The notes under the pieces were generated by a model. That model saw only the letters and a program-made list of their open reading frames with translations. It searched no databases and was not told where the DNA came from. DNA of 62,245 bases, counting the filler, from Basidiobolus ranarum (Eukaryota), in NCBI GenBank assembly GCA_040143965.1. It is 24 parts of 24 records of this genome, joined end to end, with 100 filler letters (N's around TTAATTAATTAA, not from the genome) between each part and the next. Parts side by side here need not be neighbours in the genome. Positions count along the whole stretch, not along the records: positions 33,842 to 36,337 come from JASJQH010010147.1; 23 more parts are not named here. One strand, written 5' to 3'. This document shows, piece by piece, positions 1 through 60,266 of this stretch. The translations under genes and the position numbers were made by a program. Position 1 is the stretch's first letter. Each line of letters starts with the position of its first letter.

Positions 1-1623
1 ACTAGTAGAAGCGCTGGAACCACTGACACTCCCGCTGTTGGTTCCTGTCGCACTAGTAGACGATCCACTGCTACTACCTCTGTTGGTATCTGTAGCACCA
101 GTAGAAGCGCTTGAACCACTGACACTTCCGCTGGGGGAGGTAGCTGTAGTGGGAACTGAGGTGACACTGGTTACAACTGAAGATGTCGCGCTTGAGCCTG
201 TGGGGCTAGAAGCGGAAACACTCGATCCACTAACACTACCACTGTTGGTGTCTGTAACACTAGTAGAAGCGCTTGAACCACTAACACTACCACTGGGGGA
301 TGTAGCGGTAACAGATTCAGTAGAAGTAAATGTGGATGTGGCAAAAGTAGTCAAAGTCGTAGTAGTAGGCCCACTAGGACCAGTTTGAATGGAAGTAACT
401 GTAGTGGGAACTGAAGTGGTCACAACTGAGGATGTCGGATTTGTAGTAGAAGCACTCGATCCACTGACACTACCACTGTTTGTACTGGATGCACTAGTAG
501 ATGTAACGGACCCACTAACACTGCCACTGGGGGACGAGCTAGTCAAAGAGTTGCTATTACTTGGCTCAGTACCAGATTGAGTCTGAGTATTAGTACTGGT
601 GCCGGTGACGGAAGTAACCATTGTGGTAGTGGAAGGTCCACTAGGTCCACCAGTAGTTATGGTAATAGTGGTGGGAACAATAGAGGTAGTGATAACAGTA
701 AAGGTTGTGGGAGGAGTGTTGGTCTGAGTAGTAAAGGAAGTAGTATCAAGAGTTGTTACCGCATTCGTGGTGGGAGTGATAGTTGCAATCACTGTAGAAG
801 GCACTACGGTGTTACTCGGCTGAGTTACTGTAATGGTAGGCGTAGCAGTTACAAATACAGGTGGGAATATATCCGTAATGTAAGTTGAATCTACTGGCCT
901 CTCAACTGCAGTAGAAGGAAGTGTCTCAGTAAAGTATGGCACTCCAGTATGAGTAACTGTTCTTCCTGGATAAACAGAAATAATGACACTGCCGAAGTCA
1001 CTGTAGGTAATCGTTTGTGGTGGCACAATAATGGTATTAACACTATTCCCAAGCAGATTCGTGATTGTCGCACCTCGAATGGTTTGTAAAATTTCCAATG
1101 AGCTTTTTGCTTCACTATAAGTCCAAACACTGCTCCTATTTGGGTCGTCTGGACCAGTCAAAGTCGCCGTAGGGAAAGGAGTATTTGGAAACAACGTTTC
1201 TGTAACCTGATCAAGAGTTGCGGTATACAGTGAAGTTGGCAAAAATCTTGTGATAGTGGTTGGTTGCACGTTTTGAGTCACTGTTCTCGGTGGAAGCTGT
1301 CTTATGGCCGTACTTTCTGGATAAGTACTGATAACTGTTTCTCCACGAAATACATCGGTGAAAGTTATAGCTTCAATAGTATCAGTGAAAACTGCTGATG
1401 AAATGGTTTTCGTGGCAGAATAGCCTTGCACTGTGCCCGTCACACTGTGAGAAGGTACAAAATAGGTAACGGTAGCTCTTGGTAATCCTACTGTGTAGGT
1501 ATAAGATGCTGTTAAACCCGAGTTCCCCGCAGGGGAAGTTGTTTGAGCCTGTGCTGCAATGGGCTGTGAGAGTGCAAGTAAAAGTACTCCGGCGTAGTTT
1601 CGTCTCCTATTGTTCAAATGCAT
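1..1623 (-). CDS. Secreted Ser/Thr-rich mucin/adhesin-like cell-surface protein, 3'-truncated (at least 541 aa)
   Basis: Manual translation from ATG at 1623 stays open to base 1. It starts MHLNNRRRNYAGVLLLALSQPIAAQAQ (signal-peptide-like), continues through a T/V/P-rich region, then repeats of SPSGSVSGSSASTS / TNSGSVSGSS. It is absent from the ORF track because there is no stop codon in the window. Confidence 0.88.
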   Translation of the reverse strand, partial: MHLNNRRRNYAGVLLLALSQPIAAQAQTTSPAGNSGLTASYTYTVGLPRATVTYFVPSHSVTGTVQGYSATKTISSAVFTDTIEAITFTDVFRGETVISTYPESTAIRQLPPRTVTQNVQPTTITRFLPTSLYTATLDQVTETLFPNTPFPTATLTGPDDPNRSSVWTYSEAKSSLEILQTIRGATITNLLGNSVNTIIVPPQTITYSDFGSVIISVYPGRTVTHTGVPYFTETLPSTAVERPVDSTYITDIFPPVFVTATPTITVTQPSNTVVPSTVIATITPTTNAVTTLDTTSFTTQTNTPPTTFTVITTSIVPTTITITTGGPSGPSTTTMVTSVTGTSTNTQTQSGTEPSNSNSLTSSSPSGSVSGSVTSTSASSTNSGSVSGSSASTTNPTSSVVTTSVPTTVTSIQTGPSGPTTTTLTTFATSTFTSTESVTATSPSGSVSGSSASTSVTDTNSGSVSGSSVSASSPTGSSATSSVVTSVTSVPTTATSPSGSVSGSSASTGATDTNRGSSSGSSTSATGTNSGSVSGSSASTS

Positions 1624-2430
1624 ACTGTTGAGGGAAAAGAAAACTAAGAAAGTTAGTTAGAGAAGAAGAGGAATTGTCGCTTTGTTTGTAAATGTCTGAT
1701 GTTTCTTGGAATATATATATGAATTCTCTTGCTCCATAACACCTATACAATTACACTTGTTATTGGTAGCAGGAAAGTTCTACAGGTCATTTCCACATGA
1801 TTTCTCCAGACTCTTCGTAGTCATGATCTTTGGTTACTACAAATTGATTGGAAGGGACGCTTGGGGTAAAATGGTTGGTTATTTGTTACGCCTACTTAAA
1901 ACTTAAACTCTAAAGTTCCTTCCTTCTTCGTAAAAGTGACAGTTTCTCTCATAACCACTAATAGCAATTTGCCAATTTCTTGGCTTAGTGCAGAAGCAAC
2001 ATATTAAAAGTAATAAATCAATGGTAAGGGTATACTATATTACACACTAGATAAAGTGACGACGTAAGAAGCCTCTGGGGCACGTATTTCCCATTTGTCG
2101 TTAGCTGGTCTATTTGTGCTATGAATAGCTTATAGAATATAAGCAGATTGAATGAGTAATTCACACAGTGTATGCAAAAATAATCCATGCCAACATGACA
2201 CTGCCATTTGGCTACAGTAATTGTTTTCCGCTCGATCATCAAATCAACTGGTTGCCAAGGAAGATATGCCCATATTGGCATGAGTGTAATTATAGGCTTG
2301 ATTCAAACAAAGAAAATTCGCCATCCTAAGATCGACAGGTCTGTTGCTGAATTTTACTGGTGAATAGTGGGATCGCCTGATTAGGATGTCAGAGTATCCT
2401 TTCGGGAGGGAAAAGGTGGGGGGGGGACGG

Positions 2431-7822: not shown

Positions 7823-9540
7823 CAAAAGTCAGCATGCAGATGAAACAAAAACTACACAAGCATTTTATTCTCAAAATAGCCAACCAGAAAGGAGCACTGT
7901 GAAATGTTACAAATGTGGAAAACTGGGACATATAGCACGTTACTGCAGATCAAAGAAGAAATGGGTTTCAAAGAAAAAGGAAGCATATAACACCACTAAA
8001 AGAGGAAATGAACACTATGTACTTATGGCAACCTCTAAATCAGGAAATGACTCTGCTGATGTATGGATTCTAGATTCTGGTGCAAGTGATCATATGTGTC
8101 ACAATAGAAACATAATGCATGACTATAAGGAAATAGAACCTCTGGACATCATGGTAGCTGGAAGAAACAAACTGGTTGCATATGGAATGGGAAAGGTCAC
8201 ACTTGACTTACAAATAAGTAAAACCAAAAGTGCAATGGTAACTTTGGAAGATGTCTTATATATTCCATCATTTACAATAAATCTATTTTCACTTGGAGCA
8301 GTTGAAAAGAAACAATATGATATCAAATTCAGCCAAAGAAAGGCAGCCATATACAAATCAAAGGACTTGATAGTAGTAACTGGAACAAGAATTGGGAATC
8401 TATATTACCTGGATATTGCACCATTAACTGAGACTATTTCTAACAGTGCAAACATTACTTGTGGAAACTTGATGACTTGGCATCAGTGCTTGGGTCATCT
8501 AAGCTTTAATAGTGTGAAATTATTATATAAAAATAGCATATGTACTGTAATGGATCTTATGCCCACAGATATTACTAAATGTGAAAGCTGTAGTTTAGGG
8601 AAAATTGCCAGAAAACCATTTTTAATAGAAGAAGCTAGCAGAGCCAGAAATTTATTGCATCTTATTCATAAAGACTTATGTGGCCCAATGCAAACTCTGA
8701 CACCAAGTAAGCTACAAAATTTACTCATCCTGATAGATGATAAATCTCACTTCACAGTATCATATATTTGGTCAAGCAAATGAGAAGTGTTTCAATATTT
8801 TAAGATATATGAAGCAATGGTCATAACTGTAACAGGAAGAAAGAGCAAAGACCTATGCAGTGATGATGGAGCTATATTTAGCAACAAAGCTGTGACTAGC
8901 TTGTGTAAAGAAAAGGGAATTCATCAGTATTTTAGTATACCACATAGTGCAGAGCAAAATGGAGTTGCAGAAAGGATGAATTGGATTTTAGTTGAGAAAG
9001 CACAAACAAAGCTGATTGATTCAGATCTTCCCAAGACCTATTGAGGTGAAGCATTTTTAACAGCTACATATCTCCTAAAAAGAAGTCTGACACTTAGGAA
9101 CCATGACTCTGAAACTTCTATTAAAATCTGGACTAGAAGCAAGCCTAATCTAAATCACCTTGGATTATTTGGATTAACAGTATATGCTCTTTCTCCTAAA
9201 CCTCAGTATAGGAAATTGCACATAAAGGTAATTAAACAAATCCTACTAGGATATCAGAACATAGGCTATTGTCATTTAATTGCTGGAACAAATCAAAGCA
9301 TCAACCACAGAGACACTATATGCATTGAAGAAAGTTGCAAATCATCTAATCAAAGGAATTTGATTTTGGCTGAAAATCAATTTCACAATTACTCAAATTG
9401 TGAGTTAACAAGTTCTTCAACCACCCTTGAGATAACAAGCATTGAAACCAATGTCAAAAATGATAAATTGGAAATAGATACAAGAATTAGGCCAAATTTG
9501 GAATCTGAAACTATCTATCAACATTATCCAAATTGAGAAA
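7823..9540 (+). mobile_element. Degenerate Ty1/copia gag-pol: zinc knuckle, protease, GAG-pre-integrase, integrase
   Basis: CYKCGKLGHIARYC (CCHC), WILDSGASDHMC, WHQCLGH...CESC, DLCGPMQ, SDDG, EQNGVAERMN. Protease-then-integrase order is the copia order. In-frame stops are present. Confidence 0.93.
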
Positions 9541-13033: not shown

Positions 13034-13293
13034 TAAATCAATAAGTGAAAACCACCAATTCCTCTAATTCTCCAAACCACTTCCAACAGGCTCCCAAATA
13101 CTTTAACAGGAACATGTGTGCAAAGTTTGGGGCTTCTTTGAAAAATCTATATATCTGAAAACTTCTAAGTTGGTGTCAATATTCTAAGTAAATTCCTCAT
13201 GAGAATAATGGATAATATCTTAGTGAATTATAAGATAACAAGTACTAAGCTATATATGACTATATAGGTGTTTAGGCAATGCTAATTTCCACA
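13034..13293. repeat. Two copia family B LTR pieces in opposite orientation (13034-13108 +, 13109-13293 -)
   Basis: The LTR end ...CCAACAGGCTCCCAAATACTTTAACA abuts the interior of an inverted LTR that ends GGCAATGCTAATTTCCACA. Confidence 0.82.
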
Positions 13294-20844: not shown

Positions 20845-22364
20845 ACCTTTTCCCACCCAGTGAGATGCTCATCATGGGCCCACATAGATCAGAATGAATC
20901 AGGGAAATACTCTGGGTGGATTTGCTCCCTCCAGAGCATAAAAATGGCTGTCTGTGATGTTTTCCATATATGCAACCTTCACACAGATCCAATTTAGTGA
21001 TATTTCCAATTTCCCAGCCTGAAACAAGCTGATTTTGGATCATTTAAGTCATTTTTTGTTCCCCAATATGGCCTAATCGTCTATGCCATGTTTGACAACT
21101 TATTTCACCAGTTTTGGCCAAGTTTGCATGCTCAGAATGCAATTTGTCAATTTCCAGACTGTATAAGTTTTGAGTTTTGATCCCAGTAGCTAATTTGGTA
21201 TTTTTCTGATCTGTGATAGTGCATCCAGCCTTACTGAACATGAAATCTAATTCTTCAGTTGATGCTTGGCTTACTGAGAGTAGATTCTTGGCTATATTTG
21301 GCACATAGAGTACATCATCTAATTTGGCAGATGGTGTAGCTGAATTGTGGTCTAAATTGAGTACAACTCTGCCCTTACCAACTGCCTCTAGTGTATAATC
21401 ATCACCCAAGTAGACTTTTCTAGTTTGGATTGGTTTTAAGCTGAAGAACCAATCTTTCCTGTTTGACATATACAGGGAAGCTCCTGAATCAATGTACCAT
21501 GTTTCTAAGTCTTCTTTAGTTGTTACTAATAGGGCAGACACAAATAAATGATCTCTATCAGTGCTTACTTGACTTGCTTGTTCCAATTTTTGCTTTTTGG
21601 CAACAATCCTTTTTCTTCAAACTTTGATTAAATGGCCTGGTTTCTTGCAATACTTGCAGATGATTAATTTCCTAATAGGGGCACCATTGTTGCAGCCTGT
21701 TGGATGTTTTACAGCTCCAAAAAAGGCCTGTTGTGCGTTATTTTGCTGAGAATTAGATCTCCTTAATTCTTCAGTCAAAAGTCTAGTACCAACAAATTCC
21801 ATTGTTATTGGCTTTGATCTTGATTCTGGGGCAATTATGAGGTTCCCAAACTTGTCTGGCAGGCTCCCAAGTAGTGTCATGACTAAGTCATCTTCATTTA
21901 GAGGTACTCCAATGGATGAGAGCTGATGTACCATAGTTTTTATCCAATTTATATGATTAAGAGTAGAATCATCAGGATTCATCTGAATTGAGGACAACTT
22001 TCACCTAAGATACAGCCTATTAGCCAGACATTTACTCTAATATAGCCCCTCAAGCATTTCCCAAGCTTTTTGGACATTTTTGGCTGATTTAATGTGCCTC
22101 AATTGAGAATCTCTGCGATGTAGACAAAGTGTAGAGAGTGCTTTCCTCTGCTTCTTGTGAAAGGCAAGGATAGCTTCTGGTGGTTCCTTTGGCCCTATTT
22201 CTTCTCCTGTAACCAATCCCCAAAGGTCCTGGTCTTCTAGCACCATTTGCATCTTGAACTTCCAAATGTGAAAGTCTTCATCATCAAACCTCTTTGTGAA
22301 TGCAAAAGTGCTGGTGATAGTACTGGTAGACATTCCTTTAACAGCTAGCTTGGGGCTCATATCC
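20845..22364 (-). mobile_element. Copia family A internal 5' part: PBS, gag, zinc knuckle, protease, start of integrase
   Basis: FHIWKFKMQMVLEDQDLWGLV, LLGSLPDKF, CKYCKKPGH, WYIDSGAS, WHRRLGH, CEGC, IHSDLCGPM. Few disablements, so a relatively young copy. Confidence 0.93.
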
Positions 22365-25223: not shown

Positions 25224-25946
25224 TTACAATCCTCTGTTGCTATAAGCTGCGTTCTGTTGTGCATCACCATGTACTCGTTGTGAAGCTCCATTGAGCTCCA
25301 TGGATGGGTTACCAGTGGCATAACCGACATTTTGCTTCACCGCACCAGTAGCAGCATTAGTAGTTCCTGTGACAGCTCCTGGTTGATTCTTAGCCACATG
25401 CTCTTGTAGATGGCCTTCTTGACGTTGGCCTGCACCTTGAACTTCAATAGATGGCTTGTTGAAGGTACTTCCGACACTCTGCTTCATTGCTCCTACGGCT
25501 TGATCCTTCTTGGCTGACATGGTCGAAGGCTTTTCCCCAGACACATTGTGATAAGGATCATTGCTGGTAGCAGTACCAGTGGAAATTGGACTAGTAGTTT
25601 GATGAGTTGTGGGGTGACTTGTGCTTGTTGAATGGCTATGAAGAGGATCAGCTCCGACGTAGCCAGTTCCTGTAGTATTTGTGGTTCCAGGAATATGGCT
25701 GTTACCAGCATTAGTACCAGCTAAGCCAGCACCAGTAACTCCAGCGCCTGTATGATGAGTACCGGTAACACCAGTTCCGGTATGATGGGTGCCGGCAATA
25801 CCAGCGCCTACTCTATCACTTGGATCATTTAACTTCCCAGCATTGTGCTGAGCATTTCCATGATAGCGTTCGGCTCCACCCTCAGCAGCTAGGTGTGGGT
25901 TGTTGGTAGCCTCACCAATGTTTTGTTTGGCTGTACCCTTGGCTGA
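25224..25946 (-). CDS. CsbD-repeat / LEA-like hydrophilin, 5'-truncated (at least 240 aa)
   Basis: The frame is open from the contig edge. Three CsbD-like modules (AKGTAKQNIGEATNNPHLAAEG; AVGAMKQSVGSTFNKPSIEVQG; ATGAVKQNVGYATGNPSMELNG) and GTHHTGxGV repeats. Confidence 0.82.
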   Translation of the reverse strand, partial: SAKGTAKQNIGEATNNPHLAAEGGAERYHGNAQHNAGKLNDPSDRVGAGIAGTHHTGTGVTGTHHTGAGVTGAGLAGTNAGNSHIPGTTNTTGTGYVGADPLHSHSTSTSHPTTHQTTSPISTGTATSNDPYHNVSGEKPSTMSAKKDQAVGAMKQSVGSTFNKPSIEVQGAGQRQEGHLQEHVAKNQPGAVTGTTNAATGAVKQNVGYATGNPSMELNGASQRVHGDAQQNAAYSNRGL

Positions 25947-26047: not shown

Positions 26048-27324
26048 TATTCTCAATTGGAATTTACTTAGAATATTTTTACCAACTTAGAAGTTCTCAG
26101 ATATATAGATTTTTCAAAGAAGCCCCAAACTTTGCACACATGTTCCTGGGACCTTCCTGAACATATTCTACACATTAGTTTGTTTACATCTTGACAACAC
26201 TATAAATGTCAACTTTCTACTCAATAAATCAATAAGTGAAAACCACCAATTCCTCTAATTCTCCAAACCACTTCCAACAGGATCCCAAATACTTTTACTG
26301 AAGCAACAAAAGAAGCAATATGGTTGAGAAATTTCTTAACAGATTTGGGTTATTCTTGAAATTCACCAACTGCAATTTTACAAGATAATAAATGTTATAT
26401 CAAATTAGCTAAAAATCCCATGTTTCACAAGAGAAGCAAACATATAGATATTAGATATCACTTCATTAGAGAGACTATATAGAATAAGTTTATTGACTTC
26501 ACTTTTTGCTCTATGGAAGACATGATTGCTAATATATTAACCAAATCATTAGGTTGACAGAAATTTGAGAAATTTAGACCTTTGTTAGGATTTGTTTATA
26601 TGACTATTTAGTTGAGAGAGAGAATTGGAATTAGCATTGCCTAAGCACCTATATAGCATGTATAGCTTAGTACTTAGTTATCTTATTGTTCACTAAGATA
26701 TTTTCCATTATTCTTATGAGGAATTTACTTAGAGGTTCTCAGATGTACTGATTTTTTCAAACTTGTGCTAGAAGCCCAAAACTTTGCACATGTGTCCCTG
26801 GGACCTTCCTTAACACATTTGACATGCTAGTTTTCTTTCATTTTGATGAAACTATATACATCAACTTTCTACCCATTAAAGCAATAAGTGAAAGCCATCA
26901 ATTCATCTAATTCTCCAAACCACTTCCAACAGGCTCTGAAATACTTTAACAATATAACTATTTAGTCGAGGGAGAGTGTTGAAATTAGCATTGCCTAAGC
27001 ACCTATATAGTTATATATAGCTTAGTATTTAGTTATCTTATATTGAACCAAGATATTACCCCTAATTCTCAATCAGACTTGACTTGAAATATTTTTACCA
27101 ACTTTAATGTTCTGAGATATATGGATTTTTCAAACTTGTGCTAGAAGCCCCAAACTTTGTGCACATGCTTATGGGACCTTCCTTAGTACACTCTACATGC
27201 TAGTTTGCTTATATCTTGATAAAGCTATAAATTTCAACTTTCAACTCAATAAATCAATAAGTGAAAACCACCAATTTCTCTAATTCTCCAAACCATTAAC
27301 AAGAGGCACCCAAATATTTGAACA
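26048..27324 (+). mobile_element. Copia family B cluster: partial LTR (26048 to about 26297), RNase H fragment (about 26298-26610), PPT+LTR (26623-26951), PPT+LTR (26977-27324)
   Basis: EATKEAIWLRKFL...HKRSKHIDIRYHFIRE. PPT AGTCGAGGGAGAG precedes TGTTGAAATTAGCATTGCC...TACTTTAACA. Confidence 0.88.
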
Positions 27325-27731
27325 ACTCTATTATTATATGTTTATATTTTGTGCAGCACCTCTGGGAATAGGATTTTAGATGTAGGCTGCTGTATACCAA
27401 ATCTGTGATCTAATCCAATGATATATAGTTATGTAACTTGATAAGTCAGCTAAGGGAGTGCTTTCAGCGGGTGATTCCAATCAAGTATATCAAACTGAGT
27501 TATTGACCCATGCATTATCATCTATTAATTTATTAACGTATAGATTGATCTTAGACTATCCTACCGAGTTTTTACTTGAATGAATATCACAACTAGAGTG
27601 ATGGTAGTGTTGACACAATTACTTGTGTTTCGTTTATTCAAGTACATTACTCAACGGATGCACACAGTAATGTCACAACTTCACTTAGAGACTCTCTAGT
27701 CTCAGTAGACTAATGAGCAATATAAGCTGCA

Positions 27732-33601: not shown

Positions 33602-35075
33602 TTCAAGTAAGTTGTTTTAATTTGTGTACAATATTTGGAGTTTTCTTGATATTATACTTCTATATTGAAGGTAGATCTATTATTTATTTATAATTTTAAA
33701 CAGTTACTCGAATGTGTTTATGGTAATGCATATAAAATATANNNNNNNNNNNNNNNNNNNNNNNNNNNNNNNNNNNNNNNNNNNNTTAATTAATTAANNN
33801 NNNNNNNNNNNNNNNNNNNNNNNNNNNNNNNNNNNNNNNNNATTAGATCGGATTAGCCCTAATCACGGTGAAAGACTAAAGTTAAATTGCGAGCTCAACA
33901 AAGCGACTTGCTTAACATAACAGTATAGGTGAGTAAGATATCCACCAATGGATAGAGAGATTTGTTACGTAACTAAGAAATCGTTGAGAGTGTCCATTTG
34001 ACGCATTCTAGAGATAGAGTATAAACCACCTCCTTTTATTGAACGTGGTATGCGAATATAAATATATTTGTTTCTTATTGGGGACTAATATTAAGATGCA
34101 AAACATTTAGATATCAGCTAGATTAGGGGGGATTGTTCCCATGTGGTAAAAATTAAAGAGGTTGCCTGCATATTGAGAATCTTGGCAGTTAAAGGATTGC
34201 CGGAACTTTCCAATTTTAAGATAATAACGTACATATTACTCTACCGTAGCCATGTCTGTGATATGAGTGTATGTCATATCATAAAGCTGAACAATGCATT
34301 GAAGGTCATCGATTGGTATATTAAATCAAGTTTCATTACGTTTCAAATACACTTGGTTCTACATCTTCCCTCTTTTCATTTACACAATGGTTAGTTCATA
34401 TCTCCAGGTTTAAAATCGGAAGAGAGGTAAATTTAATCAATACTAACGGACCTATCTTTGTAGGCTTGGTCAGCTCAATACGATACATACAATATAACCA
34501 ACGAAGTACAAAATGAATCACCTGCTGAGATATACATGGTTCTTTAGTCACGCCACGGTACCCCAGAATTTTTCACCTAAAACCTGTGAAACCTGATACA
34601 CTACTGGGTATGGTAAAAGCAATACAATGAAGCTGGGAAATGTTGGTGAATTTGGAAATATAAATGGTGGTCATAAAAAAAGTATTGGTAAAAAACTGAA
34701 AAATGGTTGGTCAGATGTATTTTAGAAATTATCGCTTTCCTCTAATAAATAGAGAAACTTTAATTGAAGGTTATCTTACTTTGGAAGAGGTAAAAGAATA
34801 ATTCTGCTTTATTCCAATGCTAAATTTAGCTTTGCAATAGCCTCGATCTCTGAAAATTTCTAAAATAAATCTTTTCAAGAGCATTCATTGGAAGCAAGAG
34901 AACCTATTCGTTGAGTATAAATCTGCCTTCGTGGATCATAAGTCTTCTGTAACTGTTACTACATGGACAGAATATGCATTTTTACTGGCAACTTTATCAC
35001 CTCTTCATCTTTCTGTTTACATTCTCTGTATTATATATTTTACTTACATGACTAAAGAAAAGATAAGTGGTATAT

Positions 35076-35386
35076 TGTTAAAGTATTTTGGGAGCCTGTT
35101 GGAAGTGGTTTGGAGAATTATAGAAATTGGTGGCTTTCACTTATTGAGTTGAAAGTTGACATTTATACTTTTGTCAAGATGTAAACAAACTAACATGTAG
35201 AATGTGTTAAGGAAGGTCCCAGGAACATGTGTGCAAAGTTTGGGGCTTCTTTGAAAAATCTATATATCTGAGAACTAAGTAAATTCCTCTTGAGAATAAT
35301 GGGCAATATCTTAGTTCAATATTGGATAACTAAATACTAAGCTATATATGACTATATAGGTGTTTAGGCAATGCTTATCCCCAGCA
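35076..35386 (-). repeat. Copia family B solo LTR
   Basis: TGTTAAAGTATTTTGGGAGCCTGTTGG...GGCAATGCTTATCCCCAGCA, homologous to 26977-27324. No clean target-site duplication is visible. Confidence 0.85.
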
Positions 35387-36337
35387 TGCATCAAGACATC
35401 TACATCCTATACAAACCATATTGTAGAACTCTTTGAAGAGTGTTGAGTTTGTTTCAACAAAAGATGAAAGAAATACTTCCTGATGATGTAAGTATAGCAC
35501 ACAACTTCAATAGAACACATTCTGAACCAAAATATACATTAGGCCCTCTTGTCTGACAAAAGAAAGCAAATAATAGAAAAGTACTAGTGTTTGACTTCTC
35601 ACATCTGAATCTCAAGAGGTATAGTATTGTTGAATAAAAATGTATAAGGGTATGTAATTAACACATATTGTAGTTTTGAAGAGCAAAAAGAAAGTGGACA
35701 TTACATGCAATATATTTTTTCTAATCTCATAAAAATCGATGGTTACCCTGCCGAGGTTACTATTTACAAGCCAAAACCAAAGCATCTTGGTACCAGCAAG
35801 GAAGACTACACTCTTGAAGATTTGAGAAAAGCCTTTCCGCAAGATGAAATTCGAGTGATTATTACTTAACAGCAATTGATCCTGGTCGCTCTTGTGTCTT
35901 CACGTCCGCGTCTGGCGGTGAAGGTGGAAAATACCAAGTAAGAAGACTTACCAGAAAGGAGTATGATGGGTGCTCTGGTTCCAGAAGATTAGTGAAAGAA
36001 GAACTGGAAAGAGCAAAAAGCAAAGAAATGCTTTCTATCTTTGAAAACACGCCTACCTCAAAAACCATCTCAAGTATAATCAGAGTAAGATCCCTATTAT
36101 CGCTTTCGACAATGGTATGAAGGGAAAGGATTCAGCAAAGCTCTACGGGCATCAGGTGGGTTTAACTGGAAGTCTGTATCGCCTCTTAAAGCGTCGAGAG
36201 AACGAAGGAAGACTTTTGGTAGCATGTGTTAATGAGTTTCGAACGTCAAAGGTAAAATCAAGCATAGTGGGCTTTTATTGTCGTAAGACAACTAACATTT
36301 GTGAATAGGTATGTCATTGTTGCAAACAAGCAGACAT
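35387..36337 (+). pseudogene. Fanzor1 (eukaryotic TnpB/IS200-IS605-derived RNA-guided endonuclease) remnant with spliceosomal introns
   Basis: In order: TSTSYTNHIVELFEE; VFDFSHLNLK[intron 35619-35673]SFEE...FSNLIKIDGY (FxxxIxTDG-like); YYLTAIDPGRSCVFT (RuvC-I Asp at 35878); QVRRLTRKEY...PTSKT; KIPIIAFDNGMKGK...LYRLLKRRENEGRLLVACVNEFRTSK (RuvC-II Glu at 36234); [intron 36252-36308]; VCHCCK (zinc finger). Frameshifts and deletions are present, and the contig ends before RuvC-III. Confidence 0.82.
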
Positions 36338-36437: not shown

Positions 36438-36661
36438 ACATGTAGAATATGTTAAGGAAGGTCCCAGGAACATGTGTGCAAAGTTTGGGGCTTCTAGCAC
36501 AAGTTTGAAAAATCTATATATCTGAGAACTTCTAAGTTGGTAAAAATAGTACAAGTAAATTTCAATTGAGAATAATTGATAATATCTTAGTGAATTTTAT
36601 GATAACTAAGTACTAAGCTATATATGAGCGTATAGGTGTTTAGGCAATGCTAATTTCAACA
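36438..36661 (-). repeat. Copia family B LTR (partial) abutting the CACTA transposase
   Basis: Ends ...TAGGCAATGCTAATTTCAACA, as do the other family B copies. Confidence 0.85.
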
Positions 36662-42392: not shown

Positions 42393-43660
42393 ATGTCTGT
42401 TTCAAATAAACAAATTCGGTTTATGGAACGTCCCAAGGGAGAGGTCGATATCTCTCGTACTTTCAAAGAAGTAACCGAAACTATTTCCACTAAAAGCGAA
42501 GATTTGAAGCACGGTACTTTCTTGGTTAAAATTCATTACTTGAGTTTGGACCCAGCTATGAGGTAAGTGAAGTCCTCCTTTACTTGGACGGTTAAGCTAT
42601 TGGATATACATGTAGGCAGGTCTTTTAATTCCTTGGATTTATTTTTGAATAAGAGGGTGGATGAACAACGTTAGGTCATACATTGCACCTGTCGAAATCG
42701 GAAGCGTTATGAGAAGCATGTCTTTAGGAACAGTCATAGCTTCTCAACACTCTAAATATCAACCTGGTGATATTGTCTTGGGTGCTTTCGGTTGGCAAGA
42801 GTATGCGATAACCAATGGAGTTGAAGTTAAAAAAGTAAAGTAAGTAACCTTAAAACACCTGATTCTTCAGTTGTTACTCCAATTAATTTCTCGACTCTCC
42901 CAGTGTTCCCAAAGGTATACCAGTGAGAACCATGTTGAGTACTCTAGGTACCACCGGGTTAACTGCATTCTTTGGTCTTTTCGAAATCGGAAAGCCCAAA
43001 CCTGGCGATACTGTTATCGTATCTGGGGTAAGTCAAGAGTGAATACCTCACCATCCTTATTGAGGTACTAACTGAACAGCCAACTTAATATTTTAGGCTG
43101 CAGGTGCCACCGGTTCCGTTGTTGGTCAAATGGCCAAAATATGTGGATGTCGTGTAATCGGAGTTGCTGGATCCGATGAAAAATGTCGTTGGCTTAAAGA
43201 GGAGCTCGGATTTGATGTAGCATTAAACTATAAATCACCCACTTACTATGAAGAATTTGTCAAAGCCACTCCAAAGTATGTTGACGTTTACTTTGATAAT
43301 GTCGGTGGTCAAACATTGGAATATTCCCTACAGCGTATCAATCTCAACGGCAGAATTGTCGTTTGCGGTGGTATTTCGCAATATAACACATCTAAGCCAC
43401 AAGGTCCTAAGAATTACATGAACCTTATCTCCCAGCGCGCTAAGATGGAGGGATTTGTTGTGTTTGATTACAAAGACAAATACCCTCAAGCTATTGCAAA
43501 GATGACTGAATGGATCCTCAGCGGTCAACTCAAATTCAAGGAGCATATCGTCGATGGTTTGGAAAACGCGCCTCAGGGTTTGCTCGACCTGTTCAAGGGT
43601 GTAAATACTGGTAAAATGCTTGTTAAAGTTTCTGACGAAGCTACCAAGAGCAAATTGTAA
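42393..43660 (+). CDS. NADP-dependent MDR oxidoreductase (prostaglandin reductase/CurA-like); exons 42393-42562, 42654-42839, 42904-43027, 43097-43660
   Basis: Splices in frame: YLSLDPAMRGWMN, GTTGLTAFFG, VSGAAGATGSVVGQ, YFDNVGG, CGGISQYN, GVNTGKMLVKV. All three introns are GTAAGT...AG. Confidence 0.95.
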
Positions 43661-44370: not shown

Positions 44371-46270
44371 TGCTGTTGTGTGGCAGTACACATTAAACCA
44401 GTATGCCTGTTTGGTGGCATGCTCCTTATATTAGCTGATGAACCACACTTGTTGTGCTCTTGGCCTTTTTAGTAATGTTACTCTAATTCTAGTGGTGAGG
44501 CATATAGAGTCAACTTTTGAAATAGATTCCTTGTCAGGAGTTTCTTGAAATTTGAGGGATCTAGTATGTTTGTGCAATGAGCTGGACTGCTCCAACTTGC
44601 ATTCCAGAATATCTTCTGAGCCATTATATTTTCTTGCTTTTTCTTTATATCTCAGTTGATCACTCTTGCCATAGTATCCTGGAATGGTGTTTTGAACTGT
44701 GCAACCTCCATCAATAGTTGCTGCAAGCAGAATTCTGAAGGCATGAAGATATAGTTTTCTCTACACAGTAGAGTCAAACGTTTCTTTAACCTCTATTTAA
44801 TGCCCCCTTCCCCATCTTCTGCCAAGTTTATGAATAACTCCCATGTATCCAAGCAACAATTTATAGTGGTTACCTGGGCATCAGTAAAATTGTTAGGTGT
44901 GCACTGCTTTATGCCACTCACACCTTCATTTGACTGCTTGCATGAAATTTTTGAAATGGTGGTTTCCTGCACTAAAGTAGATTGTGAATCCAGAAGAATC
45001 TGTTTTGATAAGATATGTAACTATCATATATATCTATAATGTTAGACTTTACTAATTTCTATCAGAATTAGGGATCTTTTTATATAATTGGTTAAAATGA
45101 AAAGTATAGTGTGATTAAGCATAATTCATTTTCCTGTGAGCTGTTTTGATTTGCATGTCTAATAAATGGATTAAGATCAAACTATGATTAACTTTGTTGA
45201 TGCAGTATATTATATAATTGTGATATAATAACACCTATTGGAAGTAAAGAGAATAGTTAAAGCAAACAGAAATTTTATCAAGTAGAATGTAGGGAAATAC
45301 ACCAGGATAACTAAAATTCTTAGATAGATATCATTTACAAACCAGATCACTCTATATTATACTGGCTCAATTAAAATTAGTAACATGATCTCCATCTACT
45401 CTAAACAGTCATTGCTCATCAATCTAAAGCATCCACTGGCTTTGCAATCACCAGCTTAGAGGCTATATTTGAGGAATACTGTGGCTCATAAGTTCCAATA
45501 CCTCCCAGAAAGCACTTGGTCAATTTAATATGTTGCTACAGAAACTATTGCCTAATCAGATTTCAATGCACTATCAATGGTTGTAAAAGTAGAAGAAGCT
45601 TCTGTTCCAAGCTCCAGATAAGCGAAGATTATCCAGCTATGGTGATTAATGAAGTTGGGGATGCCTGTGACAGTAGATTCAGAGACTCTGGATTCCTTCT
45701 GTTTCCTGAAGTATCCCCAAATAAAGCTTATATCAGAATTATCCTTGACACATTTCCTGTAAGAATCAACAGGCTCATGAGCAACCAAAAGCTATTATAC
45801 TCTGGCAAGTATAAAGCTCTTGATGTAAAGTTCCAAGTACTGACAGATTTGAAAGGAAACATCATTTGGCTGTGTAGGCCACATCCAGGAAGTCACCATC
45901 ACAAAAGGCATTGGGCTGAGACACAAGCCTCACTTGCAACATATGAAAAGACTATGGCTGATTTAGCATCCATTGTGGAAGAATGAAGAAGGCTAGGATA
46001 TGTCATAGCTAACAAGAGGCCTAGAGAAGAGAAACTTACACAGAAGCAAAAGCTTTATGATCATATTTTCTTCCATTATAGATCAAGAGTAGAACATAGC
46101 TTTGGCTTCCTAAAGAGATATAGCATTGTGGCAGGAAAGTGTAGAAGAAAATCTATTGTGGGCCTCAATAAAAATTAGGTAAAGTAGTCAAAACCATGAT
46201 TAATTCTCAATACTTTGTACTCAAAGATATACATTCAGATCTCTAAACTTAAGACACTGTGAACAAAGCA
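44371..46270 (+). mobile_element. PHIS-type DDE_Tnp_4 element: transposase (+, about 45390-46260) and divergent ORF2 (-, about 45030-44430)
   Basis: ILDTFPVRINR...YSGKYKA.DVKFQVLTDLKGNIIW...PHPGSHH...MADLA...RSRVEHSFGFLKRY. Same layout as 18582-20744. Confidence 0.87.
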
Positions 46271-49550: not shown

Positions 49551-50875
49551 GATATGGTGCAGAGTTAGCCAGACTTCTATGAATACTCCTATTTTTCAGC
49601 TATACAACTGTAGCAACAGATTCCACCCAAAAGTCATGAGCTAACTTTTGTGCATTTAACATAGATATTGCCATTTTTATTGTAGTCCTGTTAGCTCTTT
49701 CAGCAACTCCATTTTGTTGAGGTGAATAGGGGGCAGTAGTTGCTTGCTTAACTCCATGAACTATGCAAAAGTGATTAAATGGTGTTGAAGCATATTGTCC
49801 ACCATTTTCAGTATGTATTTTCTTGATGTTAGATCCAGTTTCAGTCTCTACATAGGTTGTAAAGTTTCTAAAGATAAAGAGAGTTTCCTGTTTTCTTTTT
49901 ATAAAGTAGACCCAAGTGTATCTTGTATATTCATCAATAAATTTGATTAAAGTTCTTGTTTCTGCTTAAAGATAAACTTTATATAGGTCCACACATATCT
50001 GAATGAATTTGATCCAATTCTTTGACATATTTGATTAAACCAGAGCTCTTGAACAGTTGCCTGGGTTGTTTTCCTCATATACCATCCTCACAAATTTCCA
50101 ATTTGGTTGGGGAGGATTAGTTTAAATTCCAGAAATTAGGCAACTTTTGACCATTTTGCTCAAATAATCAAATCAAATAGGGCTAAATCTCTTATGCCAT
50201 AGTTGATTAGTGTTTTGATTTGAATAACTTATATTTACACATAAATCTCTTGGATTATATGTAAGTTTGTATAAGTTCTGATTCCTTTTCTCATGAAGCT
50301 AAATAGTTCCCATTTTGATCCACAATGGTGCATCCTAACTTTGGTTTAAAAAAGTTTTGCATTGTTTTCTTTTCCTGCAATAATGTCCCAAAGACCTTTT
50401 TGGGCAGCAGCATTTTTATTTTAATTTTCCAAACTTGCTAATTGGTTCCATCCAGTTTTTAAGAAGAGACAAAAGTTCCATAAATTTGAGATGTAGACAT
50501 CAGAGAGTGTGAGCTTGAGGTTCATAACTGGTTAAAGTAAATGGAAGCCTGTTGGAAGTGGTTAGGAAAATTAGAGAAATTGGTGGTTTTCACTTATTGA
50601 TTGATTGAGTAGAAAGTTGACATTTAAAGTTTTGTCAAGATGCAAACAAACAAGCATGTAAAATATGTTAAGAAAGATCCTAGGAACATGTGTGCAAAGT
50701 TTGGGCTTCTAGCACAAGTTTGAAAAATCTCTATATCTGAGAACTTCTAAGTTGGTAAAGTATTCTCAGTAAATTCCAATTGAGAATAATGGATAATATC
50801 CCAGTGAACTATAAGACAACTAAATACTAGGCTATATATTACTATACCAGTATTTAGGCAATGCTAATTTCAACA
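49551..50875 (-). mobile_element. Internally deleted copia family B element: 5' LTR (50875-50529), degenerate PBS, gag start, integrase
   Basis: The LTR is followed by GTTATGAACC, then KLDGTN*QVWKIKIKMLL (gag), IHSDMCGPI, TENGGQY and PYSPQQNGVAERANRT. Confidence 0.85.
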
Positions 50876-53523: not shown

Positions 53524-54481
53524 CTAATACTCTTGGATATCTCGCTTGGGAAAGTATGCAGAATACCGTTTGAGCTTTGCTGGATTAATCCCTACGTCTT
53601 CGCTCGTGCTTGCTCTATATAGCTTTTTGGGGGCCATTGATTTGGGTCGCTCGCTTCGAGATCCATCTTTCCAGCTTTCAAACCCATTCCCTTGAGTAGT
53701 GGCTGCTGATACCGCATTAGATTTGGTAGCATGTTTCGAACCTATGTCATCAGGAACTAGGTGTGGGTACAAGCTCTCTGGGAAAAGGACATCCACATAC
53801 TCTATACAGAGACGTACGATACTTCCAACTGTTCCGGCTCCTACTGTACACATCGAAACATCTACCATAGGGTTACCACTACGTACCAAATTGGGGGACC
53901 ACACAACAGCTAGATTATAAGGAGTCATCAAATTTATGGAGCTTTTTGCTGATATATCATTCATTAGTCGGAATATTTGTGCAAGTAAAACAAGTGTTGG
54001 TTTCGAGAAGTTTTGGAAGATGTTGGTTCGGATATACTGAATAGATTCAGTATCATTGGTGCAACTTCTCATATCTCTAATAGTTACGTAGTTCTCAGCT
54101 GAGAAAACTGGAGTAGGTAGTTCACGGAAAAACATCTTTAGCAATACGGCAGCAACGTGAACACCGTACTCTTCCAAATCCAAGCAATTTCCTAAGAGAT
54201 TCTCTGAGGGTTACTAATGAACTTCATTCGTGAGTGGATTGGAAATTTACCTCTATTATAGGTTTCTTTAGCTTCCTTAAGTGCTGAGGAAGAAGGTGAT
54301 CGTCGGAAAATACCTTCCACTTCGATGCCTTCAAGTAGATGTTTGTTAAACTAGTTTATCATGAATTATATTTAAACTGAAATAGAAACCTTGAGTCCTG
54401 ACAAATTCAACGCATTCGTAAAAGAATTGCGCCACCTATGTCGACCTTGAAGAACCCCTCGTCTCCCGAAATTATCTCGCC
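53524..54481 (-). CDS. RhoGAP-domain protein, 5'-truncated, at least two introns
   Basis: Spliced: FFYECVEFVRTQ-GIEVEGIFRRSPSS (arginine finger)...VHVAAVLLKMFFRELP...NLMTPYNLAVVWSPNL. Confidence 0.9.
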
Positions 54482-59758: not shown

Positions 59759-60266
59759 ATTCAACATCATAGTTAACTTTAGTTATGATACATGTATCAG
59801 AAACCGAAAGCAACATATCTATAGCCCCTATATTCTAAATAGGAATATCTCTATATCTATATAACAAGTGTGTCTTATTACCCCCACTTATTTATTATAT
59901 CTTATTTCACAAACTTCTGAATATCTCAAACAATTGATTTACTTTTCTACTATGTATGTCACCATATACTCTTAAGAATAAACTAACTAAGACACACTAT
60001 CATAAGTTGCCTCTAATACTCAAAGTCTACCCCCATTATGTCAAGATCCTCCAACAGCATCCCCCATACCCCCTGCTTTCTTTTTATACTGGGAGGACTG
60101 CATCCCCCTGACCCCCTCTTTTCATCCTCACCCCAACCCCTAAACTGACAACATTCTAAGTAAATTCCTTATGAGAATATTTGGTAATATCTTAGTTCAA
60201 TATAAGATAACTAAGTACCAAGCTATATAAGACTATATAGGTGTTTAGCCAATGTTAATTTCAACA
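59759..60266. repeat. Partial family C LTR (59759-60056), a C-rich linker, and a partial family B LTR (about 60155-60266)
   Basis: Direct similarity to 57968-58265 and to the family B LTR end AATG(T)TAATTTCAACA. Confidence 0.82.

What the first reader, a model, noticed from the sequence alone, without database searches (positions are those of the whole stretch)
35387..36337. Hidden Fanzor (eukaryotic RNA-guided TnpB-like nuclease) gene relic
Seen: pieces in different + frames read in order SYTNHIVELFEE, VFDF, FSNLIKIDGY, LTAIDPGRSCVFT, VRRLTRKEY, PTSKT, KIPIIAFDNG, LKRRENEGRLLVACVNEFRTSK and VCHCCK. Known: this is the Fanzor1/TnpB order of REC, WED (FxxxIxTDG), RuvC-I (hhDPG), RuvC-II (hDExxTS) and a CxxC zinc finger. 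Fanzors are omegaRNA-guided endonucleases carried by eukaryotic transposons. Inference: this genome hosts a Fanzor lineage that may be undescribed. The RuvC-I Asp (35878) and RuvC-II Glu (36234) are intact, but this copy is dead: a frameshift at about 35850, a deletion at about 36070 removing the bridge-helix region, and another at about 35585. RuvC-III and the expected 3' omegaRNA lie beyond the contig end.
Basis: partly seen in the sequence, partly recalled or inferred. Interest (0 to 1): 0.9.

Follow-up and report, generated by a model that had tools for sequence, protein, structure and literature searches.

The report
Broken Fanzor1 nuclease gene relic
This is a decayed, cut-off copy of a Fanzor1 gene, a transposon-borne RNA-guided DNA cutter of eukaryotes, on a short fungal-type contig; it is real but ordinary, because such genes and their dead copies are already known in Mucor-like fungi.

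Summary
All nine peptides are present in the stated + frames, with the Asp at 35878 and the Glu at 36234.

The window is 24 contigs of about 2.5 kb joined by linkers. The finding lies on contig 14 (33842-36337) and runs off its 3' end.

- **Relatives.** The RuvC-I piece finds 19 relatives at E<=1e-3 among 1.84 billion proteins, the best at 1.4e-17. The named relatives are Mucoromycota fungi.
- **Link to Fanzor1.** A profile of 10 relatives, built without any window sequence, hits solved Spizellomyces Fanzor1 (8GKH) at 1.4e-20. The same profile hits four collinear + strand pieces of contig 14, at E from 3e-5 to 1.7e-21.
- **Catalytic residues.** The window's Asp and Glu align with SpuFz1 D383 and E541.
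- **State of the copy.** It is dead. It is truncated at the 5' end by a ~305-bp repeat. It lacks profile positions 204-396 and 533-622. It is frameshifted near 35850. It is cut by the contig end inside the zinc finger.
The frame change at 35619-35673 is a 55-nt intron, not a lesion. A second intron lies at 36252-36308.

Fanzor1 has been described in Mucorales since 2013, so novelty is low.

The parts
35071..35378 (+). Copy of a ~305-340-bp interspersed repeat family. It forms the 5' boundary of the relic.
   Evidence: blastn within the window gave 9 further matches on 5 other contigs: contig 11 (4 matches), contig 6 (2), and contigs 15, 20 and 24 (1 each). They share their ends at about 35075-35077 and 35378. 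No Fanzor homology lies upstream on the contig.
35366..35443 (+). Remnant of the N-terminal (probably REC) region: ..SPACIKTSTSYTNHIVELFEE.
   Evidence: Stop-to-stop piece 35360-35443 matches positions 179-203 of the relatives' profile, E=3.1e-5. The REC label is inferred from position only.
35444..35586 (+). Stretch with no detectable homology. Profile positions 204-396 (193 positions) are missing and only 143 nt are present, so this is a large internal loss, with stops.
   Evidence: No piece in this stretch scored better than E=5.6. There is an in-frame stop at 35554-35556.
35587..35618 (+). Exon end, VFDFSHLNLK plus 2 nt of a split codon.
   Evidence: Aligns to profile 397-406 once it is spliced to the next exon.
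35619..35673 (+). Intron 1, 55 nt, GT..AG.
   Evidence: Splicing raises the HMM score from 16.9 to 30.4 bits with an ungapped extension over profile 397-459. It is the best of 40 GT-AG candidates.
35674..35850 (+). Exon segment before RuvC-I (probably WED): SFEEQ..IFSNLIKIDGYPAEVTIYK..LEDLRKAFPQDE.
   Evidence: Profile 405-459, E=4e-6 unspliced and 3.3e-10 spliced. The WED label is inferred from position relative to SpuFz1 WED residues 291-345 (PMC10432273).
35843..35860 (+). Frameshift, from coordinate mod 3 = 2 to mod 3 = 1. No profile positions are lost.
   Evidence: Profile 459 ends at 35833 in one frame and profile 460-465 resumes at 35845-35860 in another. Alignment with relatives agrees.
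35860..36075 (+). RuvC-I segment: YYLTAIDPGRSCVFT..VRRLTRKEY..NTPTSKTISS. The catalytic Asp codon is at 35878-35880.
   Evidence: - phmmer E=1.4e-17 to P0001.
- Profile 465-532, E=8e-14.
- The Asp sits at profile position 471, which is SpuFz1 D383.
- The Lys of PTSKT corresponds to SpuFz1 K440.
36072..36085 (+). Deletion junction with a frame change (mod 3 = 1 to mod 3 = 0). About 90 profile positions (533-622) are missing.
   Evidence: Every relative whose sequence extends past this motif continues after PTxKTxS with Y..Y..F.FY..RF.LYQGRQRA..NIL.GGKKYN plus a K-rich linker. Positions 533-576 are conserved with SpuFz1, so a core segment was lost.
36078..36251 (+). RuvC-II segment: YNQSKIPIIAFDNGMKGKD..LYRLLKRRENEGRLLVACVNEFRTSK. 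The relocated catalytic Glu codon is at 36234-36236.
   Evidence: - Profile 623-688, E=1.7e-21.
- 47% identical to Mucor flavus P0021 residues 531-589.
- The Glu sits at profile position 679, which is SpuFz1 E541.
- The nearly invariant Gly of FGdG is Asp here.
36252..36308 (+). Intron 2, 57 nt, GT..actaac..AG, phase 0.
   Evidence: Splicing raises the HMM score from 67.8 to 77.7 bits and joins TSK to VCHCCK, as in the family consensus TSKvCnsC. It is the best of 29 candidates.
36309..36337 (+). Start of the zinc-ribbon (TNB) domain, VCHCCKQAD, holding the first CxxC pair. It is cut by the contig end.
   Evidence: Profile 685-692. The contig ends at 36337.

Best explanation
Window 35366-36337 (+) is a pseudogene fragment of a Fanzor1-type gene. 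Fanzor1 is the eukaryotic TnpB homologue that, when intact, is a transposon-carried, omegaRNA-guided RuvC DNA endonuclease. The host genome is probably a Mucoromycota fungus.

What remains, in the family order:
- a short N-terminal (REC-side) remnant;
- the segment before RuvC-I;
- the RuvC-I strand with its Asp;
- the strand at the canonical RuvC-II position;
- the relocated RuvC-II Glu in NEFRTSK;
- the first Cys pair of the zinc ribbon;
- two retained spliceosomal introns.

The copy cannot make a nuclease, for five reasons:
1. The first ~180 profile positions are gone, and a ~305-bp repeat sits there instead.
2. About 190 profile positions of the REC/WED part are missing.
3. A frameshift precedes RuvC-I.
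4. About 90 profile positions of RuvC helices between RuvC-I and RuvC-II are deleted, with a frame change.
5. A nearly invariant Gly is replaced by Asp.

Shown here: homology, collinearity, the lesions and the introns. Inferred: the ancestral copy worked like SpuFz1 (guide RNA from the 3' end, cleavage by D-E-D with Mg2+), and this copy now does nothing.
For: 1. All peptides and coordinates are verified.
2. phmmer of 35848-36117 found 19 relatives at E<=1e-3, the best at 1.4e-17 and 54% identity. The named ones are from Rhizopus azygosporus, Umbelopsis and Mucor flavus.
3. Full-length relatives were found. P0021 (Mucor flavus, 657 aa) and 36 more Mucorales proteins came, and P0020 (Rhizopus microsporus). 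P0021 alone hits SpuFz1 8GKH at 1.6e-8.
4. Profile A1 holds 10 relatives and no window sequence.
   - It hits 8GKH at 1.4e-20, in two collinear blocks covering RuvC-I and RuvC-II/zinc finger/RuvC-III.
   - Its next hits are LaTranC (1.4e-4) and Cas12m (0.094).
   - 7 of its 10 members hit Pfam PF07282, Cas12f1-like TNB.
5. A1 hits only contig 14 among the 24 contigs. Four collinear pieces score 3.1e-5, 4e-6, 8e-14 and 1.7e-21.
6. Catalytic mapping. Chain 8gkh_P numbering equals native numbering plus 394. That offset fits D383, N385, K440, R531, E541 and D606 alike. The window's Asp aligns with D383 and its Glu with E541.
7. The Glu lies 42 residues after the canonical RuvC-II position. Jiang et al. 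describe a relocated Glu about 45 residues away (PMC10530073, passages).
8. Two GT-AG introns are each the best-scoring choice among 40 and 29 candidates.
9. The lesions are shown, and the repeat boundary.
Against: - No piece of the window hits Pfam directly: 0 families for 3 pieces at E<=10.
- No piece hits the PDB directly.
- A word-indexed search with the RuvC-II piece found nothing.
- The link to Fanzor is therefore transitive, through relatives. Each step of that link is strong.
- RuvC-III, the second Cys pair, the omegaRNA and the transposon ends cannot be seen because the contig ends.
- The single-base frameshift could be an assembly error. Reads could not be consulted.
- The REC, WED and 'bridge helix' labels are positional inferences only.
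Confidence: 0.92

Rival explanations
1. The relic is part of an internally deleted, non-autonomous derivative of the Fanzor-carrying transposon, and the ~305-bp repeat at 35071-35378 is that element's left terminal region. The repeat copies elsewhere would then be 'ghost'-like partners that intact Fanzor or transposase copies mobilise or target in trans.
For: - The repeat ends at 35378, exactly where Fanzor homology begins.
- The repeat is multi-copy, with 9 further matches on 5 of the 23 other contigs.
- S. punctatus has 134 Fz-less ghost loci that share element ends with Fz loci (PMC10432273, passages).
Against: - None of the other repeat copies in the window is followed by Fanzor sequence.
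- In SpuFz1, ghost loci share the 3' omegaRNA end with Fz loci, not a 5' block.
- On contig 11 the repeat copies lie in tandem, and on contig 6 they are nested or inverted. That pattern looks like an independent repeat.
- No terminal inverted repeats or target-site duplications were identified.
Confidence: 0.1
2. The gene is intact in the organism, and the apparent lesions are artefacts of a poor, fragmented assembly: collapsed or chimeric repeat contigs and indel errors.
For: - The contigs are only about 2.5 kb long, and this one ends inside the gene. That is typical of multi-copy sequence breaking an assembly.
- The frameshift at about 35850 is a single-base event.
Against: - There are four independent defects, two of which remove 193 and 90 profile positions.
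- A nearly invariant Gly is replaced by Asp.
- There is an in-frame stop at 35554.
- Assembly errors of this size and number on 1 kb are unlikely. Partial Fz copies are common in real genomes: 23 of 42 Fz loci in S. punctatus are partial.
Confidence: 0.05
3. The sequence is not Fanzor. It could be a bacterial TnpB from a contaminant or endosymbiont, or an unrelated fungal gene that shares short motifs by chance.
For: The window pieces have no direct Pfam or PDB hit.
Against: - There are two spliceosomal introns with an actaac-type branch site.
- The G+C content of 35% matches the neighbouring contigs.
- All named relatives are Mucoromycota nuclear genes.
- The best solved match of the family is eukaryotic Fanzor1, at 1.4e-20. 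TnpB-derived prokaryotic proteins score 1.4e-4 or worse.
Confidence: 0.02

Closest known systems
Spizellomyces punctatus Fanzor1 (SpuFz1; PDB 8GKH, 9CEU-9CEZ)
   Same: - It is the best solved match of the relatives' profile, at E=1.4e-20.
- The order of elements is the same: RuvC-I (hIDPx), the IPSxKT motif, the helical RuvC segment, the relocated Glu in (D/N)E(Y/F)(K/R)TS, a CxxC zinc ribbon, and WNRD as RuvC-III.
- The window keeps the equivalents of D383, K440, R531 and E541.
   Different: - The window copy lacks the N-terminal third, much of REC/WED and the equivalent of SpuFz1 residues ~445-500 (RuvC helices that hold the omegaRNA contacts N480-K483). Everything after the first CxxC is missing too.
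- SpuFz1 has IDPN where this family has (I/L/V)DPG.
- The SpuFz1 locus is described as a single ORF (passage). This copy has introns.
Mucorales 'Cas12f1-like TNB domain-containing' hypothetical proteins, e.g. Mucor flavus MFLAVUS_002581 (P0021, 657 aa) and Rhizopus microsporus RMATCC62417_10637 (P0020)
   Same: - They belong to the same family as the window copy.
- P0021 residues 531-589 are 47% identical to 36078-36254.
- The motifs are shared: FxNxIxTDGY, DPGR, RRxSxKEY, PTxKT, FGDG and NEFxTSKxC.
- The family is multi-copy, with 37 proteins from Mucor, Thamnidium, Gilbertella, Rhizopus and Backusella.
   Different: - These proteins are full-length or nearly so. The window copy is fragmentary and frameshifted.
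- The window's nearest relatives (49-56% identity, P0001-P0005) form a closer subgroup. Except for one Rhizopus azygosporus fragment, that subgroup is known only from unnamed assemblies.
Fanzor1 families of Rhizopus oryzae (ROr, 4), Mucor circinelloides (MCi, 10) and Phycomyces blakesleeanus (PBl, 3), Bao & Jurka 2013; and Parasitella parasitica PpFz1
   Same: - They are the same kind of element in the same fungal group. Some are carried by MuDR-like non-autonomous transposons (PMC3627910, passages and Table 1).
- The window keeps as much of the motif D-X(125-275)-[TS][TS]-X-X-C4 zinc finger-RD as the contig allows.
   Different: - Whether the window copy belongs to one of those named families could not be tested, because their sequences are in supplements that are closed.
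- PpFz1 (9CF1-3) and GtFz1 (9CER-T) did not appear among the PDB hits of the A1 profile even at E<=10. This family is therefore a different Fanzor1 lineage from PpFz1.
Prokaryotic TnpB (IS200/IS605, IS607) and Cas12f/Cas12m/TranC
   Same: They share the RuvC plus zinc-ribbon (TNB, PF07282) core and RNA-guided cleavage. The family profile hits LaTranC at 1.4e-4 and Cas12m at 0.094.
   Different: - This family has the relocated RuvC-II Glu typical of Fanzors.
- It has introns.
- It has a longer N-terminal half.
- Its host is a eukaryote.

Membership tests
Fanzor1 (eukaryotic TnpB homologue) | Significant sequence or profile similarity to experimentally characterised Fanzor1 | tested here: met
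   The link has two steps. The window pieces match profile A1 at E from 3.1e-5 to 1.7e-21. A1 matches SpuFz1 8GKH at E=1.4e-20. The window pieces have no direct PDB hit.
Fanzor1 (eukaryotic TnpB homologue) | RuvC-I catalytic Asp | tested here: met
   The Asp of AIDPGR (35878) sits at profile position 471, an invariant column (D402 of P0021). It aligns with SpuFz1 D383.
Fanzor1 (eukaryotic TnpB homologue) | Rearranged RuvC-II: a non-Glu residue (Gly/Pro) at the canonical position and a conserved Glu about 45 residues downstream, before [TS][TS] | tested here: met
   - The Glu of NEFRTSK (36234) aligns with SpuFz1 E541 and lies 42 residues after the FDNG position.
- The canonical position is not Glu.
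- The window has Asp where the family has a nearly invariant Gly.
Fanzor1 (eukaryotic TnpB homologue) | [TS][TS]-X-X-C4 zinc finger (TNB / OrfB_Zn_ribbon, PF07282) | tested here: inconclusive
   TS-K-V-CHCC is present, which is the first Cys pair. The second pair lies beyond the contig end. 7 of 10 relatives hit PF07282.
Fanzor1 (eukaryotic TnpB homologue) | RuvC-III Asp (RD motif; WNRD in the relatives) | not testable with these tools
   It lies beyond the contig end at 36337. No other contig of the window carries it, and no whole genome is held.
Fanzor1 (eukaryotic TnpB homologue) | Eukaryotic nuclear gene context (introns) | tested here: met
   Two GT-AG introns of 55 and 57 nt are each the best of 40 and 29 candidates by profile score.
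Fanzor1 (eukaryotic TnpB homologue) | Associated 3' omegaRNA and transposon ends | not testable with these tools
   The 3' end of the locus is not on the contig. Rfam found nothing in the window.
Functional Fanzor1 nuclease | Uninterrupted ORF covering WED, REC, RuvC and TNB | tested here: not met
   Profile positions 1-178, 204-396 and 533-622 are absent. There is a frameshift at about 35850, a frame change at about 36075 and an in-frame stop at 35554.

The most novel reading that the evidence does not exclude
The relic marks a Fanzor1 sub-lineage whose closest proteins are only 49-56% identical to it. Apart from one Rhizopus azygosporus fragment, those proteins come only from unnamed assemblies. 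Intact, active copies with their own omegaRNA and TAM may survive elsewhere in this genome. The abundant ~305-bp repeat that abuts the relic may be a 'ghost'-like non-autonomous partner of that element.
Probability: 0.15. Interest if true: 0.4.

Novelty: new member of a known kind. Interest (0 to 1): 0.2.

Why it matters
The finding shows that this genome, probably a Mucoromycota fungus, has hosted a Fanzor1-carrying element. That agrees with the known multi-copy spread of Fanzors in fungi. Published counts are 3,655 unique Fanzors, up to 122 copies per genome, and many partial copies (passages read).

The copy itself is dead and has no function. Its only practical value is as a probe for intact copies in a better assembly. 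The retained introns fit the published picture of Fanzor genes acquiring introns during long residence in eukaryotic genomes.

Tried and rejected
**Searches that found nothing**
- Pfam on the three raw ORF pieces: 0 families at E<=10.
- phmmer of two pieces against PDB sequences: only chance hits, E>=0.25.
- Word-indexed search with the RuvC-II piece against longer proteins: none of 85 candidates reached E<=1.
- Scan of metagenome contigs with the alignment of the closest relatives: 31 pattern matches, none confirmed. A first try with a broader alignment had no searchable stretch.
- Rfam and ARAGORN on the whole window: 0 matches each.

- Whole-genome search and download: no genome is held.
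A stored homologue was used instead.
No structural comparison with SpuFz1 was made.

**Ideas considered and dropped**
- I guessed that 35437-35553 (RVLSLF..) matches the family's PRxFSLFPNP block. The profile gave no support (E=5.6).
- The profile alignment of 35982-36044 in the third frame to the K-rich linker was rejected as low-complexity overlap. That DNA is strongly homologous in another frame.
- Short GT..AG pairs at 35488-35512 and 35650-35673 were rejected as introns because they are too short.

**Rows left out**
- P0007, a 1173-aa repetitive protein, was left out of all alignments as a probable spurious hit.
- P0012 was also left out of A2.
- A1 used 10 of the 58 relatives found.
Full report
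**Setting**

The 62,245-base window is not one locus. It is 24 contigs of 2,487-2,508 bases, sorted by length and joined by N44-TTAATTAATTAA-N44 linkers, with G+C of 32-43%. The finding lies on contig 14 (window 33842-36337) and reaches that contig's 3' end. Everything below therefore rests on this contig and on relatives from public protein collections.

**The observation**

The Asp of AIDPGR is encoded at 35878-35880 and the Glu of NEFRTSK at 36234-36236.

**Is it more than chance, and what is it?**

Direct searches with the raw pieces failed:
- Pfam gave 0 families for the three ORF pieces.
- phmmer against PDB sequences gave only chance hits.
- A word-indexed search with the RuvC-II piece found nothing.

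The exhaustive phmmer of 35848-36117 against 1.84 billion representative proteins succeeded. It gave 19 hits at E<=1e-3 and 5 at E<=1e-10, the best at 1.4e-17 with 54% identity. Most of these hits are short ORF-type predictions. The named ones come from Rhizopus azygosporus, Umbelopsis sp. and Mucor flavus.

Two relatives tie the family to known proteins:
- P0017 (Mucor flavus, 243 aa) carries DEFKTSRICCRCG..C..C..WQRDVNAAKN. It hits Pfam PF07282 (Cas12f1-like TNB) at 1.1e-9, above the gathering score. Its best PDB matches are SpuFz1 (8GKH), mimivirus TnpB-like L79, Cas12m, TranC and TnpB.
- P0014 (295 aa) spans both the RuvC-I and RuvC-II pieces of the window in one protein.

Full-length relatives followed. 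They are P0020 (Rhizopus microsporus, 719 aa), P0021 (Mucor flavus, 657 aa, PF07282) and 36 further Mucorales proteins. P0021 alone matches SpuFz1 at 1.6e-8.

I aligned 10 of the 58 relatives as alignment A1:
- the six full-length proteins with a precomputed PF07282 hit;
- P0020, P0029, P0014 and P0017;
- no window sequence.

The A1 profile gave these results:
- It hits SpuFz1 at 1.4e-20, in two collinear blocks (RuvC-I to the RuvC helices, and RuvC-II/zinc finger/RuvC-III).
- It then hits LaTranC at 1.4e-4 and Cas12m at 0.094.
- 7 of its 10 members hit PF07282.
- Against all 144 reading frames of the 24 contigs it hits only the three + frames of contig 14. The next best frame scores E=0.21.
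- Against the 53 stop-to-stop + strand pieces of 34800-36337 it hits four, in profile order:

| Window piece | Profile positions | E-value |
|---|---|---|
| 35360-35443 | 179-203 | 3.1e-5 |
| 35648-35866 | 405-459 | 4e-6 |
| 35848-36117 | 465-532 | 8e-14 |
| 36045-36305 | 623-688 | 1.7e-21 |

The ESM Atlas places P0021 in a cluster of 86 proteins, all eukaryotic and mostly Mucoromycota. Giant-virus PF07282 clusters are its nearest neighbours.

**Catalytic residues**

The MBP-fused chain 8gkh_P is numbered native plus 394. With that single offset, the residues named in Saito et al. all fall on the matching letters in the alignments (passages read in PMC10432273; alignments). Those residues are D383, N385, K440, R531, E541 and D606.

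Through the profile:
- the window's Asp (35878) corresponds to D383;
- the Lys of PTSKT corresponds to K440;
- an Arg in LLKRRE corresponds to R531;
- the window's Glu (36234) corresponds to E541.

The Glu lies 42 residues after the strand IIAFDNG, which occupies the canonical RuvC-II position. Jiang et al. report that Fanzors have Gly or Pro at that position and a compensating Glu about 45 residues downstream (PMC10530073, passages). The window has Asp where the family has a nearly invariant Gly (FGdG). I read this as decay. RuvC-III (WNRD in the relatives) and the second Cys pair lie beyond the contig end.

**Gene structure and lesions**

Two of the frame changes and stops are introns.
- *Intron 1.* Removing 35619-35673 (55 nt, GT..AG) joins VFDFSHLNLK to SFEEQKES... 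This raises the profile score from 16.9 to 30.4 bits, with an ungapped extension to profile 397-459.
- *Intron 2.* Removing 36252-36308 (57 nt, GT..actaac..AG) joins NEFRTSK to VCHCCK. This raises the score from 67.8 to 77.7 bits.
- *Control.* Each is the best of all GT-AG pairs of 30-150 nt nearby, 40 and 29 candidates respectively.
- *Support from relatives.* P0014 ends ..TSKV. P0005 begins with residues that match the translated 3' end of intron 1. Both fit introns at the same places in those relatives' loci. This is an inference.

The real defects are:
- **(a) 5' truncation.** Profile positions 1-178 are absent. The DNA immediately upstream (35071-35378) is a copy of a ~305-340-bp repeat. 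That repeat has 9 further matches on contigs 6, 11, 15, 20 and 24.
- **(b) Internal loss.** Profile positions 204-396 are missing. Only 143 nt lie between the flanks, with a stop at 35554.
- **(c) Frameshift.** It lies between about 35843 and 35860 and loses no profile positions.
- **(d) Core deletion.** Profile positions 533-622 are lost at about 36072-36085, with a frame change. All relatives that extend that far continue there with Y..Y..F.FY..RF.LYQGRQRA..NIL.GGKKYN and a K-rich linker. Positions 533-576 are conserved with SpuFz1. By position, the lost part covers SpuFz1 residues ~445-500, including the omegaRNA contacts N480-K483. That mapping is an inference.
- **(e) Contig end.** The contig stops 29 nt into the zinc-ribbon exon.

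Its "deletion at about 35585" is better described as the gap at 35444-35586 plus an intron.

**How it works**

An intact family member is expected to act like SpuFz1. That means a transposon-carried protein which binds an omegaRNA transcribed from the element's 3' end, recognises a TAM, and cuts DNA with one RuvC site (D-E-D, Mg2+) supported by a C4 zinc ribbon. This is established knowledge for Fanzor1 and is inferred for this family. This copy cannot do any of that. It is a pseudogene.

**Rivals**
- *The repeat is the element's left end and the relic is part of a deletion derivative.* I give this 0.10. No other repeat copy in the window is followed by Fanzor sequence.
- *The lesions are assembly artefacts.* I give this 0.05. 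That would require four independent defects within 1 kb, though the single-base frameshift alone could be an error.
- *It is not Fanzor, or it is bacterial TnpB.* I give this 0.02. The introns, the composition and the fungal relatives all speak against it.

**Comparison and novelty**

- Fanzor1 families were listed for Rhizopus oryzae (4), Mucor circinelloides (10) and Phycomyces blakesleeanus (3) in 2013, some in MuDR-like elements (PMC3627910, abstract, Table 1 and passages).
- Parasitella parasitica PpFz1 has been solved (PMC11423790, passages).
- Partial copies are common. In S. punctatus, 23 of 42 Fz loci are partial.
- Fanzor genes with introns and up to 122 copies per genome are described.
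- The A1 profile did not list PpFz1 or GtFz1 among PDB hits even at E<=10. This Mucorales family is therefore closer to SpuFz1 than to PpFz1.
- I could not test whether the sub-lineage is one of the named ROr, MCi or PBl families. Their sequences are in supplements I could not see.

**Verdict**

This is a real, correctly recognised but ordinary Fanzor1 pseudogene fragment. It is a new member of a known kind. Interest is 0.2.

Noticed in passing
window 1-62245: The window is a concatenation of 24 contigs of 2,487-2,508 bases, sorted by length and joined by N44-TTAATTAATTAA-N44 linkers. Neighbouring stretches are therefore not physically linked.
   Followed up: yes
35071-35378; also 26048-26071, 26092-26298, 26627-26956, 26984-27325, 50531-50868, 36438-36654, 13035-13108, 13107-13286, 60156-60254: A ~305-340-bp repeat family at 77-93% identity occurs on 6 of the 24 contigs. 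On contig 11 two copies lie in tandem, 27 nt apart. On contig 6 the copies are head to head. There is no tRNA or Rfam match. Its nature (SINE, MITE or satellite) is undetermined.
   Followed up: partly
7824-8780 (+) and 21047-21616 (-): ORFs with Pol_BBD, GAG-pre-integrase and (first ORF only) zinc-knuckle domains. These are Ty1/copia-type retrotransposon fragments on contigs 4 and 9.
   Followed up: no
45492-45983 (+): ORF with a DDE_Tnp_4 (PIF/Harbinger-type) transposase domain, E=2e-7. This is another DNA-transposon remnant in the same assembly.
   Followed up: no
25227-25946 (-): A 240-aa ORF with two CsbD-like domains, E=1.3e-25. It lies on the contig with 40% G+C. Other host-type genes are RhoGAP at 53527-54210 (-) and zinc-type alcohol dehydrogenase at 43097-43657 (+).
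   Followed up: no
1-1656 (-): The longest ORF of the window (552 aa, open at the contig start) has no Pfam family at E<=0.001. Its contig has the highest G+C, 43%.
   Followed up: no
P0005 and P0014 (relatives), compared with 35650-35673 and 36252: The ORF-type predictions of two relatives begin or end with residues that equal read-through of the window's intron edges (INTY.. and ..TSKV). This suggests both intron positions are conserved in related loci.
   Followed up: partly
36108-36110 (Asp of FDNG): The nearly invariant Fanzor1 Gly at the canonical RuvC-II position is Asp in this copy, so an acidic residue sits where classical TnpB has its Glu. I read it as decay, but it is a curious substitution.
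   Followed up: no
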